Below, in pieces: positions 23,700 to 30,468 of a DNA stretch of 64,000 nucleotides. Every line of letters starts with the position of its first letter. The first letter of the stretch is position 1. The notes under the pieces are model-generated. The model was not told the origin of the DNA, did not search any database, and saw only the letters and a list, made by a program, of their open reading frames with translations. The stretch lies in the NCBI RefSeq assembly GCF_013122565.1, contig NZ_CP053258.1. One strand, written 5' to 3'. The DNA comes from Escherichia coli (GTDB lineage: Bacteria; Pseudomonadota; Gammaproteobacteria; Enterobacterales; Enterobacteriaceae). A program made the position numbers and the translations under genes.

Positions 23700-26600
23700 A
23701 TGATGGAAATTCTGCGTGGTTCGCCTGCATTGTCGGCATTCCGAATCAACAAACTGCTGGCACGTTTTCAGGCTGCCAGGCTCCCGGTTCACAATATTTA
23801 CGCCGAGTATGTCCATTTTGCTGACCTCAATGCGCCGTTAAACGATGATGAGCACGCACAACTTGAACGCCTGCTGAAATATGGCCCGGCACTCGCCAGC
23901 CACGCCCCGCAAGGCAAACTCCTGCTGGTGACCCCGCGTCCTGGCACCATCTCTCCCTGGTCTTCGAAAGCGACCGATATTGCCCATAACTGCGGGCTAC
24001 AACAGGTAAACCGCCTTGAGCGCGGCGTTGCTTACTATATAGAAGCCGGTACGCTGACCAATGAACAATGGCAGCAGGTTACCGCTGAACTGCACGACCG
24101 CATGATGGAAACGGTCTTTTTTGCTTTAGATGATGCAGAGCAGTTGTTTGCCCACCATCAACCGACTCCGGTTACCAGCGTTGATTTGCTGGGGCAGGGC
24201 CGTCAGGCGCTGATCGACGCTAACCTGCGTCTTGGCCTGGCTCTGGCGGAAGATGAAATTGACTATCTGCAGGATGCTTTCACAAAGCTTGGTCGTAACC
24301 CGAACGACATCGAGCTGTATATGTTCGCTCAGGCGAACTCTGAGCACTGCCGCCACAAAATTTTTAATGCCGACTGGATTATCGACGGTGAACAGCAGCC
24401 GAAATCGCTGTTTAAGATGATCAAAAACACCTTCGAAACCACGCCGGATCACGTTCTCTCTGCTTATAAAGATAACGCCGCCGTAATGGAAGGTTCTGAA
24501 GTGGGCCGCTACTTTGCTGACCACGAAACGGGCCGCTACGATTTCCATCAGGAACCGGCGCATATCCTGATGAAAGTTGAAACTCACAACCACCCGACGG
24601 CGATTTCTCCGTGGCCGGGTGCGGCGACCGGTTCCGGCGGTGAAATCCGCGATGAAGGTGCCACCGGGCGCGGCGCAAAGCCGAAAGCGGGTCTGGTTGG
24701 TTTCTCCGTTTCCAACCTGCGAATTCCTGGCTTCGAACAGCCGTGGGAAGAAGATTTCGGTAAGCCTGAGCGCATTGTCACCGCGCTGGACATCATGACC
24801 GAAGGCCCGCTGGGCGGCGCGGCGTTTAACAACGAATTTGGTCGTCCGGCTCTGAATGGCTACTTCCGTACTTATGAAGAAAAAGTGAACAGCCACAACG
24901 GCGAAGAGCTGCGCGGTTATCACAAACCGATCATGCTGGCGGGCGGGATCGGCAACATTCGCGCCGATCACGTACAAAAAGGCGAGATCAACGTCGGTGC
25001 GAAGCTGGTCGTTCTCGGCGGCCCGGCAATGAACATCGGTCTTGGCGGCGGAGCGGCGTCTTCCATGGCGTCAGGTCAGTCTGATGCCGACCTCGACTTT
25101 GCTTCCGTACAGCGCGACAACCCGGAGATGGAGCGTCGCTGCCAGGAAGTGATCGACCGTTGCTGGCAGCTTGGTGATGCCAACCCAATCCTGTTTATCC
25201 ACGACGTCGGCGCTGGCGGTCTTTCTAACGCGATGCCGGAACTGGTGAGCGACGGCGGGCGCGGCGGTAAATTTGAACTGCGCGATATTCTAAGCGACGA
25301 ACCGGGCATGAGCCCGCTGGAAATCTGGTGTAACGAATCCCAGGAACGCTACGTGCTGGCGGTTGCTGCCGATCAATTACCGCTGTTTGACGAACTGTGT
25401 AAGCGTGAGCGCGCGCCATACGCGGTGATTGGTGAAGCGACCGAAGAACTGCATCTTTCTCTGCACGATCGTCATTTTGATAATCAGCCGATCGATCTGC
25501 CGCTGGACGTCCTGCTTGGTAAAACGCCGAAGATGACCCGCGATGTACAAACGCTGAAAGCGAAGGGCGATGCGCTGGTCCGTGAAGGGATCACCATTGC
25601 AGACGCGGTGAAACGCGTACTGCATCTGCCGACCGTGGCGGAGAAAACTTTCCTGGTGACCATCGGTGACCGCAGCGTAACCGGCATGGTGGCGCGCGAT
25701 CAGATGGTGGGGCCGTGGCAGGTGCCGGTCGCTAACTGCGCGGTCACTACCGCCAGCCTCGACAGCTACTACGGTGAAGCGATGGCGATTGGCGAGCGTG
25801 CGCCGGTTGCGCTGCTGGATTTCGCCGCCTCTGCCCGTCTGGCGGTCGGTGAAGCGTTAACCAATATTGCCGCAACACAGATTGGCGATATCAAACGCAT
25901 CAAACTTTCCGCCAACTGGATGGCGGCGGCAGGCCACCCTGGTGAAGATGCGGGCCTGTATGAAGCCGTTAAAGCCGTGGGCGAAGAGCTTTGTCCGGCG
26001 CTGGGCCTGACGATCCCGGTGGGTAAAGACTCCATGTCGATGAAAACCCGCTGGCAGGAAGGTAACGAAGAGCGTGAAATGACGTCGCCGCTGTCGCTGG
26101 TGATTTCTGCATTTGCCCGCGTGGAAGATGTACGTCACACCATCACGCCGCAGCTTTCTACCGAAGATAACGCACTGCTGCTGATTGATTTGGGCAAAGG
26201 CAATAACGCGCTGGGCGCAACGGCGCTGGCGCAGGTTTATCGTCAGCTTGGCGACAAACCGGCAGATGTACGCGATGTCGCGCAACTGAAAGGCTTCTAT
26301 GACGCGATTCAGGTGCTGGTTGCACAGCGTAAGCTGCTCGCATACCACGACCGCTCTGATGGCGGCCTGCTGGTAACGCTGGCGGAAATGGCCTTTGCTG
26401 GTCATTGCGGCATTGACGCAGATATCGCCTCTCTGGGTGACGATCGCCTGGCGGCGTTGTTTAACGAAGAACTGGGGGCGGTGATTCAGGTTCGTGCCGC
26501 TGACCGTGAAGCGGTCGAGTCCGTACTGGCACAGCATGGGCTTGCTGATTGCGTCCATTATGTTGGGCAGGCGGTTTCCGGTGACCGTTTTGTGATTACC

Positions 26601-27587
26601 GCCAATGGGCAGACTGTATTCAGCGAAAGCCGCACTACGTTGCGTGTCTGGTGGGCAGAAACTACCTGGCAGATGCAGCGCCTGCGTGACAACCCGGAGT
26701 GTGCCGATCAGGAGCATCAGGCGAAATATAACGACGCCGATCCGGGCCTGAATGTAAAACTGTCGTTCGATATCAACGAAGATGTGGCAGCACCGTATAT
26801 TGCCACTGGCGCACGTCCGAAAGTTGCCGTACTGCGTGAGCAGGGCGTGAACTCGCATGTTGAAATGGCGGCAGCTTTCCACCGTGCGGGCTTTGATGCT
26901 ATCGACGTGCATATGAGCGACCTGCTGACTGGACGCACGGGACTGGAGGATTTCCACGCCCTGGTCGCGTGCGGCGGTTTCTCCTACGGTGATGTACTGG
27001 GTGCCGGTGAAGGTTGGGCGAAGTCTATCCTGTTCAATGACCGTGTACGCGATGAGTTTGCAACCTTCTTCCATCGTCCGCAAACGCTGGCGCTGGGGGT
27101 ATGTAACGGTTGCCAGATGATGTCTAACCTGCGCGAACTGATCCCAGGTAGTGAGTTGTGGCCACGTTTTGTGCGCAATACCTCCGATCGCTTTGAAGCG
27201 CGTTTCAGCCTGGTTGAAGTAACCCAAAGCCCGTCTCTGCTGTTGCAGGGGATGGTGGGCTCGCAAATGCCGATTGCTGTCTCTCATGGTGAAGGGCGCG
27301 TGGAAGTGCGTGATGCGGCGCATCTGGCGGCACTGGAAAGCAAAGGGCTGGTGGCACTGCGCTATGTCGATAACTTCGGCAAAGTCACTGAAACCTACCC
27401 GGCTAACCCGAACGGTTCACCGAACGGTATTACGGCGGTTACGACTGAAAGCGGTCGAGTTACCATTATGATGCCGCACCCGGAACGTGTTTTCCGTACT
27501 GTCAGCAACTCCTGGCATCCGGAAAACTGGGGCGAGGATGGCCCATGGATGCGCATTTTCCGCAATGCGCGTAAGCAGTTGGGGTAA
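23700..27587 (+). CDS. purL: Phosphoribosylformylglycinamidine synthase
   Basis: 1295-aa [26 protein letters not shown]...; large single-chain FGAM synthase with C-terminal glutaminase domain. Confidence 0.98.
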
Positions 27588-27641: not shown

Positions 27642-27664
27642 ATTAAGCACCAACCACTATCATA

Positions 27665-27690
27665 AGCTCCCAACTCCGGGAGCTTTTTTG
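27665..27690 (+). terminator. Intrinsic terminator downstream of purL
   Basis: Stem agctccc/gggagct with 6-nt loop followed by TTTTTTG. Confidence 0.75.
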
Positions 27691-27893: not shown

Positions 27894-27909
27894 TGGCACA
27901 GTTACTGCA
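27894..27909 (+). promoter_or_regulatory. Sigma-54 (-24/-12) promoter of glmY
   Basis: TGGCACagttaCTGCA: GG at 27895-27896 and GC at 27907-27908 with exact 10-nt spacing; a sigma-70 promoter is known to overlap it. Confidence 0.8.
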
Positions 27910-27920
27910 TAATAGTAAGC

Positions 27921-28104
27921 AGTGGCTCATTCACCGACTTATGTCAGCCCCTTCGGGACGTGCTACATAAAATTCGAATGACGCACAACAAGGTGCCTGC
28001 CGTCCAACTTCTGATATCAGCGTAGCTATATCAACCATCGGGCGAAACGTCGAGTTAGGCACCGCCTTATTCCATAACAAAGCCGGGTAATTCCCGGCTT
28101 TGTT
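27921..28104 (+). ncRNA. glmY: GlmY small RNA (ends approximate)
   Basis: Transcript from about 12 nt downstream of the -12 element (AGUGGCUCAUUCACCGACUUAUGUCAGCCCC...) to a terminator hairpin at 28078-28102; location between purL and glrK matches GlmY. Confidence 0.8.
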
Positions 28105-28110
28105 GTATCT
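28078..28110 (+). terminator. GlmY intrinsic terminator (leaky; glrK lies immediately downstream)
   Basis: Stem aaagccggg/cccggcttt with loop taattc, followed by GTTGTATCTG. Confidence 0.7.
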
Positions 28111-28162
28111 GAACTTCCCCTCGGTTAGCATCAGGCTATTCGCGTCTGACGAGAGTAACACC

Positions 28163-29590
28163 TTGAAACGCTGGCCCGTTTTTCCCCGCTCATTACGACA
28201 ACTGGTAATGCTGGCATTTTTGCTGATTCTGCTGCCCCTGTTGGTGCTGGCATGGCAAGCCTGGCAAAGCCTGAATGCGCTTAGCGACCAGGCGGCGCTG
28301 GTCAACCGCACCACGCTTATCGATGCCCGGCGCAGTGAAGCGATGACCAACGCGGCGCTGGAGATGGAGCGTAGCTACCGTCAGTATTGCGTGCTGGATG
28401 ACCCTACGCTTGCGAAGGTTTATCAAAGCCAGCGCAAGCGTTACAGCGAAATGCTCGATGCCCACGCAGGCGTACTGCCAGACGATAAACTTTACCAGGC
28501 ATTGCGTCAGGATTTGAACAATCTGGCCCAACTTCAGTGTAACAACAGTGGTCCCGATGCTGCCGCCGCCGCGCGTCTTGAAGCCTTTGCCAGTGCCAAT
28601 ACCGAAATGGTGCAGGCCACGCGCACAGTGGTGTTCTCTCGTGGGCAGCAACTTCAGCGTGAAATCGCCGAACGTGGGCAATATTTTGGTTGGCAATCGC
28701 TGGTGCTATTTCTGGTGAGTCTGGTGATGGTGCTACTTTTCACGCGGATGATTATCGGGCCGGTGAAAAATATTGAACGGATGATCAATCGGTTGGGGGA
28801 AGGGCGTTCTCTGGGCAATAGCGTTTCGTTCAGTGGACCGAGCGAGTTACGCTCGGTTGGGCAACGTATTCTTTGGTTAAGTGAGCGCCTGTCATGGCTG
28901 GAATCCCAACGCCATCAATTTTTAAGACATTTATCTCATGAATTAAAAACGCCACTGGCGAGTATGCGCGAGGGCACTGAATTACTGGCCGATCAGGTTG
29001 TCGGGCCGCTTACGCCAGAGCAAAAAGAGGTGGTGAGCATTCTTGATAGCAGCAGCCGCAATTTGCAAAAACTGATCGAACAACTGCTTGATTACAACCG
29101 TAAACAGGCGGACAGTGCGGTGGAACTGGAGAATGTTGAATTAGCACCGCTGGTGGAGACAGTGGTTTCTGCTCATAGCCTGCCCGCACGGGCTAAAATG
29201 ATGCATACCGACGTCGATCTCAAAGCAACAGCTTGCCTGGCGGAGCCAATGCTGCTGATGAGCGTACTGGATAATCTTTACTCCAATGCGGTGCACTACG
29301 GGGCTGAATCCGGTAACATTTGCCTTCGCAGCAGTTTACATGGTGCGCGGGTTTATATTGATGTCATCAATACAGGCACACCCATTCCGCAAGAGGAACG
29401 CGCCATGATCTTCGAACCCTTTTTTCAGGGAAGCCACCAGCGAAAAGGGGCGGTGAAGGGCAGCGGTCTGGGATTAAGCATTGCCAGGGATTGTATTCGC
29501 CGTATGCAAGGGGAACTGTATCTGGTCGACGAGAGCGGGCAAGACGTTTGTTTCCGCATTGAATTGCCGTCGTCGAAAAACACGAAATAA
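28163..29590 (+). CDS. glrK: Sensor histidine kinase GlrK (QseE)
   Basis: ORF track 28100..29590; the 475-aa form (KRWPVFPRSLRQLVMLAFLLILLPLLV...) would start at the TTG at 28163; two transmembrane segments, H-box HELKTPLASM and ATP-binding domain. Confidence 0.9.
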   Translation: MKRWPVFPRSLRQLVMLAFLLILLPLLVLAWQAWQSLNALSDQAALVNRTTLIDARRSEAMTNAALEMERSYRQYCVLDDPTLAKVYQSQRKRYSEMLDAHAGVLPDDKLYQALRQDLNNLAQLQCNNSGPDAAAAARLEAFASANTEMVQATRTVVFSRGQQLQREIAERGQYFGWQSLVLFLVSLVMVLLFTRMIIGPVKNIERMINRLGEGRSLGNSVSFSGPSELRSVGQRILWLSERLSWLESQRHQFLRHLSHELKTPLASMREGTELLADQVVGPLTPEQKEVVSILDSSSRNLQKLIEQLLDYNRKQADSAVELENVELAPLVETVVSAHSLPARAKMMHTDVDLKATACLAEPMLLMSVLDNLYSNAVHYGAESGNICLRSSLHGARVYIDVINTGTPIPQEERAMIFEPFFQGSHQRKGAVKGSGLGLSIARDCIRRMQGELYLVDESGQDVCFRIELPSSKNTK

Positions 29591-29754
29591 TGCTAACAGC
29601 CTATCCCATCAGGCTATTTTATTTGCCAGTTCGGCCCCGGGCAGTGCTCGAAATCCTCACGTACGACGTGTACGCTCTGGTTTCTCCGCACGGTCCATGT
29701 CCAAACTGCCTGCAACAATTATGCCCACTGGGAAAGGCTTTAAGTCTGGTGAAT

Positions 29755-30468
29755 ATGCGACACATTTTTCAACGATTATTGCCCCGACGGCTGTGGCTGG
29801 CAGGGCTGCCATGTCTGGCATTGCTGGGTTGCGTGCAGAGTCACAATAAGCCAGCCATTAATACGCCAGCAGAAGAAAAAATTCCGGTTTATCAACTGGC
29901 TGACTATCTTTCTACTGAATGTAGCGACATCTGGGCGCTGCAAGGTAAATCAACCGAAACCAATCCGCTTTACTGGCTGCGGGCGATGGATTGTGCTGAT
30001 CGTTTAATGCCTGCGCAGTCGCGTCAGCAAGCTCGCCAATATGACGACGGCAGCTGGCAAAATACCTTTAAACAAGGGATTTTGCTCGCCGACGCCAAAA
30101 TTACGCCGTATGAGCGCCGCCAGCTGGTCGCGCGTATTGATGAGTTAAGTACCGAGATCCCGGCACAGGTTCGCCCTCTGTATCAACTCTGGCGCGACGG
30201 TCAGGCGCTGCAACTGCAACTGGCGGAAGAGCGCCAACGCTACGGCAAGCTCCAGCAATCCAGCGACAGCGAGCTGGATACATTGCGCCAGCAACATCAC
30301 GTTCTACAGCAGCAACTGGAACTCACCACCCGCAAGCTGGAAAACCTGACCGATATTGAACGCCAGCTCTCGACCCGCAAACCGGCTGGAAATTTCTCGC
30401 CGGATACGCCGCACGAGGGTGAAAAGCCCGCGCCATCCACCCATGAGGTCACTCCTGATGAGCCATAA
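29755..30468 (+). CDS. qseG: Outer-membrane lipoprotein QseG (YfhG), accessory to GlrK
   Basis: ORF track 29590..30468; ATG at 29755 (MRHIFQRLLPRRLWLAGLPCLALLGCVQSH...) gives 237 aa with lipoprotein signal peptide and lipobox LLGC; coiled-coil C-terminus. Confidence 0.88.
   Translation: MRHIFQRLLPRRLWLAGLPCLALLGCVQSHNKPAINTPAEEKIPVYQLADYLSTECSDIWALQGKSTETNPLYWLRAMDCADRLMPAQSRQQARQYDDGSWQNTFKQGILLADAKITPYERRQLVARIDELSTEIPAQVRPLYQLWRDGQALQLQLAEERQRYGKLQQSSDSELDTLRQQHHVLQQQLELTTRKLENLTDIERQLSTRKPAGNFSPDTPHEGEKPAPSTHEVTPDEP

What the first reader, a model, noticed from the sequence alone, without database searches (positions are those of the whole stretch)
28100..28165. glrK probably initiates at a TTG codon inside the glmY terminator-proximal region
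The ATG-initiated ORF in the track (28100) would begin inside the GlmY terminator and add 21 residues. A TTG at 28163 gives the remembered 475-aa GlrK beginning KRWPVFPRSLRQLV..., so translation of the kinase may depend on read-through of the sRNA terminator and a weak start codon, which fits low-level constitutive sensor expression.
Basis: inference. Interest (0 to 1): 0.2.

Follow-up and report, generated by a model that had tools for sequence, protein, structure and literature searches.

The report
glrK starts at a known TTG

Summary
glrK/qseE starts at TTG 28163-28165 and encodes 475 aa. E. coli K-12 RefSeq (b2556) and NCBI's PGAP use the same start.

Two details are wrong:
- The longer ORF at 28100 begins with TTG, not ATG. 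That codon lies in the 3' arm of the GlmY terminator stem.
- glrK expression does not depend on terminator read-through. Published work places a sigma-70 promoter just downstream of glmY, with a start site 25 nt before the start codon (A28138). It also reports virtually no read-through.

My comparison of 80 Enterobacteriaceae loci agrees with this:
- A TAnnnT -10 element (28126-28131), A28138 and a GAGAG ribosome-binding motif are conserved.
- The 21-codon extension shows no codon periodicity, is broken by stops in 41 of 80 loci, and carries frame-breaking indels.

The weak-start idea holds up. The start is TTG in 74 loci, GTG in 6 and never ATG, and its first base changes far less often than neutral sites do. 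Yersinia-, Providencia-, Proteus- and Morganella-like relatives carry an ATG three codons upstream, so the E. coli TTG looks like a recruited leucine codon.

Overall the finding is ordinary, with one small evolutionary footnote.

The parts
27921..28104 (+). glmY small-RNA gene. The 184-nt primary form runs to 28104. The Rfam match covers the processed ~148-nt core, 27921-28068.
   Evidence: Rfam RF00128, 147 bits, E 6e-34. K-12 annotates b4441 at 2691157-2691340, which maps to window 27921-28104.
28074..28108 (+). GlmY intrinsic terminator. The 14-bp stem pairs 28074-28087 with 28093-28106, the loop UAAUU is 28088-28092, and the U-rich tail is UUUGUUGUAU. The 3' arm contains the in-frame TTG codons at 28100 and 28103.
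   Evidence: RNA fold gives dG -23.4 kcal/mol, z -6.83, and 0 of 200 shuffles fold as well. The hairpin and T-tract are conserved in most of the 80 loci.
28100..28162 (+). Spurious 21-codon 5' extension of the mechanical ORF. It is non-coding intergenic DNA that holds the promoter and the 5' UTR.
   Evidence: Divergence by codon position is 0.19/0.16/0.19 here, against 0.07/0.00/0.30 in the first real codons. An in-frame stop falls within 20 codons upstream in 41 of 80 loci. Indels are not multiples of 3. The region lies upstream of the published transcription start.
28103..28108 (+). Candidate weak -35 hexamer TTGTAT, 17 bp upstream of the -10 element and overlapping the terminator T-tract. 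This is an inference.
   Evidence: It matches TTGACA at 3 of 6 positions, and the spacing is read directly from the sequence. In genera with insertions here (Kosakonia, Klebsiella, Buttiauxella) a different sequence occupies this position, so the assignment is weak. The consensus scan found no strong promoter.
28126..28131 (+). -10 element TAGCAT of the qseEGF (glrK) sigma-70 promoter.
   Evidence: T28126 and T28131 are invariant and A28127 is at least 90% conserved in 80 loci, giving a TAnnnT pattern. The element lies 7 nt upstream of the published start site. The K. pneumoniae experimental TSS sequence reads ...CAGTTAGCATCGACCAG-A(+1) (PMC3415461 supplement). The motif is also present in Yersinia-, Providencia-, Proteus-, Morganella- and Pantoea-like loci.
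28138..28138 (+). Transcription start site of the qseEGF mRNA, an A. It gives a 25-nt 5' UTR, AUUCGCGUCUGACGAGAGUAACACC.
   Evidence: [quoted passage not shown] A28138 is at least 90% conserved. No ATG, GTG or TTG lies between it and 28163 (printout).
28151..28155 (+). Weak Shine-Dalgarno motif GAGAG, 7 nt upstream of the start codon.
   Evidence: G28151, G28153 and A28154 are at least 90% conserved. Duplex energy with the 16S 3' tail is only -3.4 kcal/mol, which 24% of all NTG codons in 20-40 kb equal or beat.
28163..28165 (+). TTG start codon of glrK/qseE.
   Evidence: It is the annotated start in K-12 b2556/NP_417051.2 and in PGAP. The codon is TTG in 74 and GTG in 6 of 80 loci, with T and G at positions 2 and 3 invariant. 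It is the first canonical start codon on the mRNA.
28163..29590 (+). glrK/qseE coding sequence: 475 aa plus the TAA stop.
   Evidence: The exact 475-aa protein is in public collections on at least 1000 contigs, named QseE/GlrK. Synteny is purL-glmY-glrK-qseG-glrR.

Best explanation
This is the ordinary, already-characterised 5' end of the E. coli glrK (qseE, yfhK) sensor-kinase gene.

- GlmY transcription stops at a strong hairpin terminator (28074-28108).
- A weak sigma-70 promoter follows immediately. Its -10 element is TAGCAT at 28126-28131, and its likely weak -35 overlaps the terminator T-tract.
- Transcription of qseEGF starts at A28138.
- The resulting 25-nt leader carries a weak GAGAG ribosome-binding motif. 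Translation starts at the first start codon on the mRNA, UUG at 28163, giving the 475-aa kinase.
- The TTG codons at 28100 and 28103 open the longer mechanical ORF, but they lie upstream of the mRNA 5' end and inside the terminator stem. The 496-aa form is therefore an ORF-calling artefact.
- A weak promoter, a weak SD and a UUG start together keep kinase levels very low.

Shown: the annotation, the conservation pattern, the lack of coding signal in the extension, and the published start site and absence of read-through. Inferred: the -35 assignment, and that the weak start is maintained by selection.
For: - Annotation. K-12 b2556 and PGAP qseE both start at the base homologous to 28163, and the codon there is TTG.
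- Start-codon conservation. Of 80 Enterobacteriaceae loci, 74 have TTG, 6 GTG and 0 ATG at this codon.
- No coding signal upstream. In-frame stops occur within 20 codons upstream in 41 of 80 loci. Intergenic indels are not multiples of 3. Divergence by codon position is 0.19/0.16/0.19 upstream against 0.07/0.00/0.30 downstream.
- Conserved intergenic blocks match a promoter plus ribosome-binding site: TAnnnT at 28126-28131, A28138 and GAGAG.
- Published experiments. The qseEGF sigma-70 promoter lies immediately downstream of glmY, with a start site 25 bp upstream of the start codon. lacZ fusions with and without glmY gave identical activity. Read-through 'does virtually not occur', and QseE is weakly expressed (PMC6075780). 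The kinase genes are 'transcribed independently' of glmY (PMC3045617) and 'from an independent promoter' (PMC4152352).
- Klebsiella. The experimental yfhK TSS lies just downstream of the same TAGCAT motif.
- Terminator. The stem sequesters 28100-28106.
- Constraint on the start codon. Its first base shows 3 parsimony changes across the tree, against a mean of 18 at 73 fourfold-degenerate sites, and all three are T to G.
Against: - No direct N-terminal peptide or initiation-profiling signal for GlrK was found. The held supplements of INRI-seq and TRAINSPOTTER have no entry, and none is held for the Ribo-RET preprint.
- The simple SD energy does not separate the candidates: -3.4 kcal/mol for 28163 against -3.9 for 28100.
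- The consensus promoter scan did not flag this promoter, in keeping with its weakness.
- I could not read the original mapping paper (Reichenbach et al. 2009). The start site is taken from later papers by the same group.
Confidence: 0.93

Rival explanations
1. One reading: glrK is translated from GlmY terminator read-through transcripts, so kinase synthesis is coupled to leakage through the sRNA terminator.
For: - glmY and glrK lie in the same orientation only 58 nt apart.
Against: - In E. coli, lacZ fusions carrying the whole glmY locus gave the same activity as the short promoter fragment, and RT-PCR found virtually no read-through (PMC6075780).
- The terminator is strong, with a 14-bp stem and dG -23.4 kcal/mol.
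- A conserved -10 element and an experimentally mapped start site lie between the terminator and the start codon.
Confidence: 0.04
2. The 496-aa form is real: initiation occurs at TTG 28100 or 28103, adding 20-21 residues. This form still appears in some older Shigella dysenteriae annotations.
For: - The frame is open from 28091.
- The exact 496-aa protein is deposited for S. dysenteriae Sd197 and WRSd3 and was seen on 54 contigs.
- The frame stays open, with TTG at the same place, in many Escherichia and Citrobacter loci.
Against: - These codons lie upstream of the mapped start site.
- They lie inside the terminator stem.
- The extension has no codon periodicity, and its amino-acid identity (0.73) is lower than its nucleotide identity (0.78).
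- Stops or frameshifting indels interrupt it in about half of the genera.
- The conserved nucleotides there are explained by the terminator, the -10 element, the TSS and the SD.
Confidence: 0.02
3. Initiation at the downstream ATG 28208 (Met16), giving a 460-aa protein and leaving the TTG unused.
For: ATG is the preferred start codon, and residue 16 is Met in E. coli.
Against: - Residues 2-15 (KRWPVFPRSLRQLV) are strongly conserved at the protein level and show third-position-only divergence.
- Residue 16 is Thr, Val or Ile in many genera, so that ATG is not conserved.
- There is no SD upstream: +0.4 kcal/mol, 85th percentile.
Confidence: 0.01

Closest known systems
E. coli K-12 glrK (qseE, yfhK; b2556, NP_417051.2) and its published qseEGF promoter (Reichenbach et al. 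2009; Göpel & Görke 2018, PMC6075780)
   Same: The sequence from the terminator to codon 16 is identical to K-12 over the 151 nt read. The TTG start, the 475-aa product and the purL-glmY-glrK-qseG-glrR synteny are the same. The published start site at -25 falls on the conserved A28138, 7 nt after the conserved -10 element.
   Different: Nothing of substance. Over the 601-nt query, the best match among complete E. coli genomes is 99.5% identical and most lie at 95-99%.
Proteus mirabilis glmY-qseEGF operon (PMC8745638)
   Same: The gene order is the same.
   Different: The paper reports that Proteus GlmY has no Rho-independent terminator and that no promoter activity was detected upstream of qseE. 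E. coli has a strong terminator and its own promoter. The Proteus-like locus has an ATG start three codons upstream of the TTG-homologous codon.
Genes whose output is held down by a UUG start, such as E. coli cya (adenylate cyclase). This comparison is from my own knowledge and was not tested here.
   Same: A conserved UUG start with a weak SD on a low-abundance regulatory protein.
   Different: No start-codon swap experiment exists for glrK. The expression-limiting role is inferred from conservation and from low QseE abundance.

Membership tests
glrK/qseE sensor histidine kinase gene (475-aa annotated form) | Same start position and codon as the reference annotation | tested here: met
   The K-12 b2556 start at 2691098 (minus strand) is TTG and maps to window 28163. 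The PGAP qseE CDS in NZ_CP027457.1 starts at the same base.
glrK/qseE sensor histidine kinase gene (475-aa annotated form) | Conserved synteny glmY-glrK-qseG-glrR downstream of purL | tested here: met
   ORFs and annotation agree. Rfam GlmY lies upstream in the window and in 7 of 8 distant loci.
glrK/qseE sensor histidine kinase gene (475-aa annotated form) | A family-specific protein model that covers the N-terminus | tested here: inconclusive
   NCBIfam has no QseE/GlrK-specific HMM. Only generic kinase-core hits (CreC, CpxA and others) appeared, all below their cut-offs and starting after residue 160. This gives no information on the N-terminus.
Rho-independent (intrinsic) terminator | Stable GC-rich hairpin followed directly by a U-tract | tested here: met
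   A 14-bp stem with dG -23.4 kcal/mol and z -6.83, then UUUGUUGUAU. The simple scan missed it, probably because the stem extends into the T-tract.
Sigma-70 promoter (qseEGF promoter) | -10 hexamer with the critical A at position 2 and T at position 6, 5-9 nt upstream of the start site | tested here: met
   TAGCAT sits at 28126-28131. T1 and T6 are invariant and A2 is at least 90% conserved in 80 loci. The element is 7 nt from the published start site, and the Klebsiella TSS sequence shows the same motif.
Sigma-70 promoter (qseEGF promoter) | -35 hexamer about 17 bp upstream of the -10 element | tested here: inconclusive
   TTGTAT at 28103-28108 matches 3 of 6 positions and is not positionally conserved in genera with insertions. 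The consensus scan found no promoter.
Sigma-70 promoter (qseEGF promoter) | Experimentally mapped transcription start and promoter activity | not testable with these tools
   Taken from the literature: start site at -25, and low lacZ activity from the -70 to +107 fragment (PMC6075780).
Non-AUG (UUG) initiated bacterial gene | The start codon is conserved as a start-capable codon, and coding constraint begins right after it | tested here: met
   74 TTG and 6 GTG among 80 loci. Codon periodicity appears only downstream.
Non-AUG (UUG) initiated bacterial gene | Direct evidence of initiation (N-terminal peptide or initiation-complex footprint) | not testable with these tools
   No glrK, qseE, yfhK or b2556 entry appears in the held supplements of INRI-seq or TRAINSPOTTER, and none is held for Ribo-RET.
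   A conserved -10 element and start site lie between the terminator and the start codon. Published fusions and RT-PCR show independence from glmY.

The most novel reading that the evidence does not exclude
The weak UUG start of glrK is not an accident. It appears to be a selectively maintained expression limiter that arose by start-codon migration.

- Yersinia-, Providencia-, Proteus- and Morganella-like relatives, and some Buttiauxella and Cedecea, read AGGT-N6-9-GAG ATG xxx xxx TTG. Here an ATG start has its own SD, and the TTG encodes Leu4.
- Core Enterobacteriaceae lost that ATG. The homologous E. coli sequence is GAG AGT AAC ACC TTG. The old GAG became part of a new SD, GAGAG, and the Leu4 TTG became the start.
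- Since then the codon has been kept as TTG (rarely GTG, never ATG) across at least 80 species, even though neutral sites turned over about 18 times on the same tree.
Probability: 0.5. Interest if true: 0.25.

Novelty: already known. Interest (0 to 1): 0.08.

Why it matters
It matters little. The result confirms that the standard 475-aa annotation is right, and that 496-aa entries such as the older Shigella dysenteriae records are over-extended.

For anyone modelling the GlmY/QseEF circuit, the practical point is that in E. coli the kinase operon is transcriptionally insulated from glmY. There is therefore no built-in feedback through read-through.

The conserved non-AUG start and its apparent origin from a leucine codon make a tidy example of how sensor-kinase levels are kept low. 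It is a footnote, not a discovery.

Tried and rejected
SD:anti-SD energies are all weak and similar (-3.4 to -3.9 kcal/mol), so they do not discriminate. The start site and the comparative data decide the question instead.
- NCBIfam scan of the 475-aa and 496-aa forms, to see where a family model begins. No QseE-specific model exists, so this was uninformative.
- Search for initiation-profiling or N-terminomics evidence. There is no entry for the gene in the held supplements of INRI-seq and TRAINSPOTTER, and no supplement is held for the Ribo-RET preprint.
- Literature search for an explicit discussion of the qseE TTG start. None was found.
- Idea that the conserved CCUC upstream of the -10 element pairs with the GAGAG SD in read-through RNA, acting as an anti-SD. 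Only three invariant pairs form, the fourth pairs in 47 of 79 sequences, and there is no real covariation. Rejected as unsupported.
- The homologue search with the 230-aa sensor domain returned only short or partial proteins (400 aa or less). I used these as handles to fetch distant loci, not as N-terminus evidence.
- The E. coli TSS table of Kim et al. 2012 had no glrK entry. Only the Klebsiella table did.

Full report
**What is in the sequence.**
- The window carries purL (23700-27587), the small-RNA gene glmY, then glrK/qseE, qseG and glrR, all on the + strand.
- Rfam places GlmY at 27921-28068 (147 bits). The K-12 annotation of the 184-nt primary transcript maps to 27921-28104.
- The mechanical ORF covering glrK runs 28100-29590 and encodes 496 aa.
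- The in-frame stop that bounds this ORF, TAA 28088-28090, lies in the terminator loop.
- A third in-frame TTG sits at 28163 and is followed by KRWPVFPRSLRQLV. Starting there gives 475 aa.
The 'ATG' is an error.

**The terminator.**
- RNA 28066-28112 folds into a 14-bp hairpin, 28074-28087 paired with 28093-28106, followed by a U-rich tail.
- The fold has dG -23.4 kcal/mol and z -6.8 against shuffles.
- Both upstream TTG codons lie in the 3' arm of this stem.

**What the databases already say.**
- K-12 RefSeq annotates glrK (b2556, NP_417051.2) as 1428 nt starting at 2691098 on the minus strand. That codon is TTG, and the K-12 sequence is identical to the window over the 151 nt read around this region.
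- PGAP annotates qseE at the same base in the best-matching genome.
- The 601-nt region is present in 5425 of 5426 complete E. coli genomes.
- The exact 475-aa protein occurs on at least 1000 contigs under the name QseE/GlrK. The exact 496-aa protein survives on 54 contigs, named from old Shigella dysenteriae annotations.

**Comparative test of the start.** I fetched 80 orthologous loci from one-genome-per-species Enterobacteriaceae, with 77-99% protein identity.
- The codon aligned with 28163 is TTG in 74 loci and GTG in 6. It is never ATG.
- An in-frame stop lies within 20 codons upstream in 41 of 80 loci.
- The intergenic alignment has insertions of up to about 45 nt that do not preserve the frame.
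- In the 26 loci that align without gaps, divergence by codon position is flat in the supposed extension (0.19/0.16/0.19). It is strongly periodic just after the TTG (0.07/0.00/0.30).
- The translated extension is less conserved (0.73) than its own DNA (0.78). For the real N-terminus the figures are 0.90 and 0.84.
- The downstream ATG at 28208 is not conserved. Residue 16 is Thr, Val or Ile in many genera, and there is no SD.

**What the conserved intergenic bases are.** Conservation in 28100-28162 falls into four blocks:
- the terminator T-tract;
- CCTCnGTTAGCAT, with T28126, A28127 and T28131 invariant or nearly so, which is a TAnnnT -10 signature;
- TATTC around A28138;
- GAGAGTAAC, a weak Shine-Dalgarno motif 7 nt before the TTG.

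**Published experiments.** The literature matches this layout exactly.
[quoted passage not shown] That position is A28138, 7 nt after TAGCAT.
- The -70 to +107 fragment gives low lacZ activity, and adding the whole glmY locus changes nothing.
- Earlier RT-PCR showed that read-through from glmY 'does virtually not occur'.
- QseE is weakly expressed and was undetected in a global proteome in which QseG and QseF were counted at 11 and 36 molecules per cell (PMC6075780).
- Earlier papers from the same group say the kinase genes are 'transcribed independently' of glmY (PMC3045617) and 'from an independent promoter' (PMC4152352).
- A genome-wide TSS study lists a K. pneumoniae yfhK start site whose upstream sequence ends ...CTCCTCAGTTAGCATCGACCAG-A (PMC3415461 supplement). 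This supports the same -10 element in another genus.
- The mRNA begins at 28138, so the TTG codons at 28100 and 28103 are not on it. UUG 28163 is the first ATG, GTG or TTG in the transcript.

**Verdict on the interpretation.**
- The start-codon call is supported.
- The idea that kinase translation depends on read-through of the sRNA terminator is contradicted for E. coli. The idea is not absurd in general. In Proteus mirabilis, glmY-qseEGF is reported to be a single operon and GlmY is reported to lack a terminator (PMC8745638).
- The idea that a weak start fits low sensor expression is reasonable. The SD is weak at -3.4 kcal/mol, the promoter is weak, and the protein is scarce.
- On a neighbour-joining tree of the 80 genes, 73 fourfold-degenerate sites average 18 parsimony changes each. 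The first base of the start codon changed 3 times, always T to G, and ATG never appears. This is a rough, tree-based argument and not a formal test, but it points to constraint that keeps the start weak.

**A small extra observation.**
- In more distant Enterobacterales loci, an in-frame ATG lies three codons upstream of the TTG-homologous codon, with its own AGGT motif 6-7 nt before it.
- These loci were attributed to Yersinia, Providencia, Proteus and Morganella through their 90%-identity cluster mates. All but the short Proteus-like contig also have GlmY upstream.
- The sequence there reads GAG ATG ATT TCN TTG, encoding M-I-S-L-K. The Ser codon varies synonymously (TCG, TCA, TCT), which suggests these codons are translated.
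- Some Buttiauxella- and Cedecea-group loci keep GAGATGaagctaTTG, while sister species have ATA in place of the ATG.
- The homologous E. coli 15-mer is GAG AGT AAC ACC TTG.
- The simplest reading is that core Enterobacteriaceae lost the ATG, the former Leu4 TTG took over as the start, and the old GAG became part of the new SD. Two Erwiniaceae-like loci have GTG at the same position.
- This rests on eight distant loci and is an inference.

**What led nowhere.**
- SD energies do not discriminate between the candidate starts.
- NCBIfam has no QseE-specific model.
- No initiation-profiling or N-terminomics entry for this gene was found in the held supplements.
- No paper in the searchable library discusses the TTG explicitly.
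- A possible CCUC:GAGAG anti-SD stem has no covariation support.
- I could not read Reichenbach et al. 2009, the primary mapping paper.

**Conclusion.** This is the known 5' end of a known gene. Novelty: already known. Interest is low.

Noticed in passing
window 28151-28165; L084-L088 about 15 nt upstream of the FPRSLRQ-encoding region; L066, L069, L075, L077, L081: Yersinia-, Providencia-, Proteus- and Morganella-like glrK loci, and some Buttiauxella- and Cedecea-group loci, have an in-frame ATG three codons upstream of the TTG-homologous codon (GAG ATG xxx xxx TTG), usually with an AGGT motif 6-9 nt before it. E. coli has GAG AGT AAC ACC TTG. This suggests the start moved onto an ancestral Leu codon after the ATG was lost.
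   Followed up: partly
window 28119-28125: The bases CCTCnGT just upstream of the -10 hexamer are more conserved than a weak promoter would need. C28122 is invariant and G28124 is at least 90% conserved in 80 loci, and both are largely kept in distant families. G at -14 could be half of an extended -10 element. The invariant C at -16 is unexplained.
   Followed up: partly
L090 (Klebsiella variicola-like) about 18 nt upstream of the TTG; PMC3415461 supplementary file 5: The old K. pneumoniae annotation KPN_02881 (1440 nt) starts only 5 nt downstream of the experimentally mapped TSS. In the related locus L090, the homologous position holds an in-frame ATG. The conserved TTG, 23 nt from the TSS-homologous base and with a GAGAC motif before it, is the more plausible start, and it is the start called on the L090 contig.
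   Followed up: partly
public protein collection: The exact 496-aa over-extended form of this protein is still deposited under Shigella dysenteriae Sd197 and WRSd3 names (for example ABB62789.1) and was seen on 54 contigs. The window's protein is identical to those entries, so the window may come from that lineage or a close E. coli relative.
   Followed up: no
window 29590-29754 and 30356-30457: The mechanical ORFs for the next two genes are also over-extended. The qseG ORF opens at ATG 29590 but the annotated start maps to ATG 29755, which leaves a 164-nt glrK-qseG spacer. The glrR ORF opens at TTG 30356 but the K-12-length gene starts at ATG 30458, overlapping the end of qseG by 11 nt.
   Followed up: partly
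window 27664-27685 and 27894-27921: A terminator-like hairpin with a T-run follows purL (AAGCTCCC...GGGAGCTT TTTTGTG). The known overlapping sigma-54/sigma-70 glmY promoter is visible by eye: TGGCAC-N5-CTGCA at 27894-27909, then TAATAG, then +1 at A27921.
   Followed up: no
L086 (Proteus-like) about 35 nt upstream of its ATG: The -10-like motif TAGCAT is retained upstream of qseE in a Proteus-like contig, although the P. mirabilis study detected no promoter activity there and reports co-transcription with glmY. The promoter may be too weak for that reporter assay, or the motif may serve another role.
   Followed up: no
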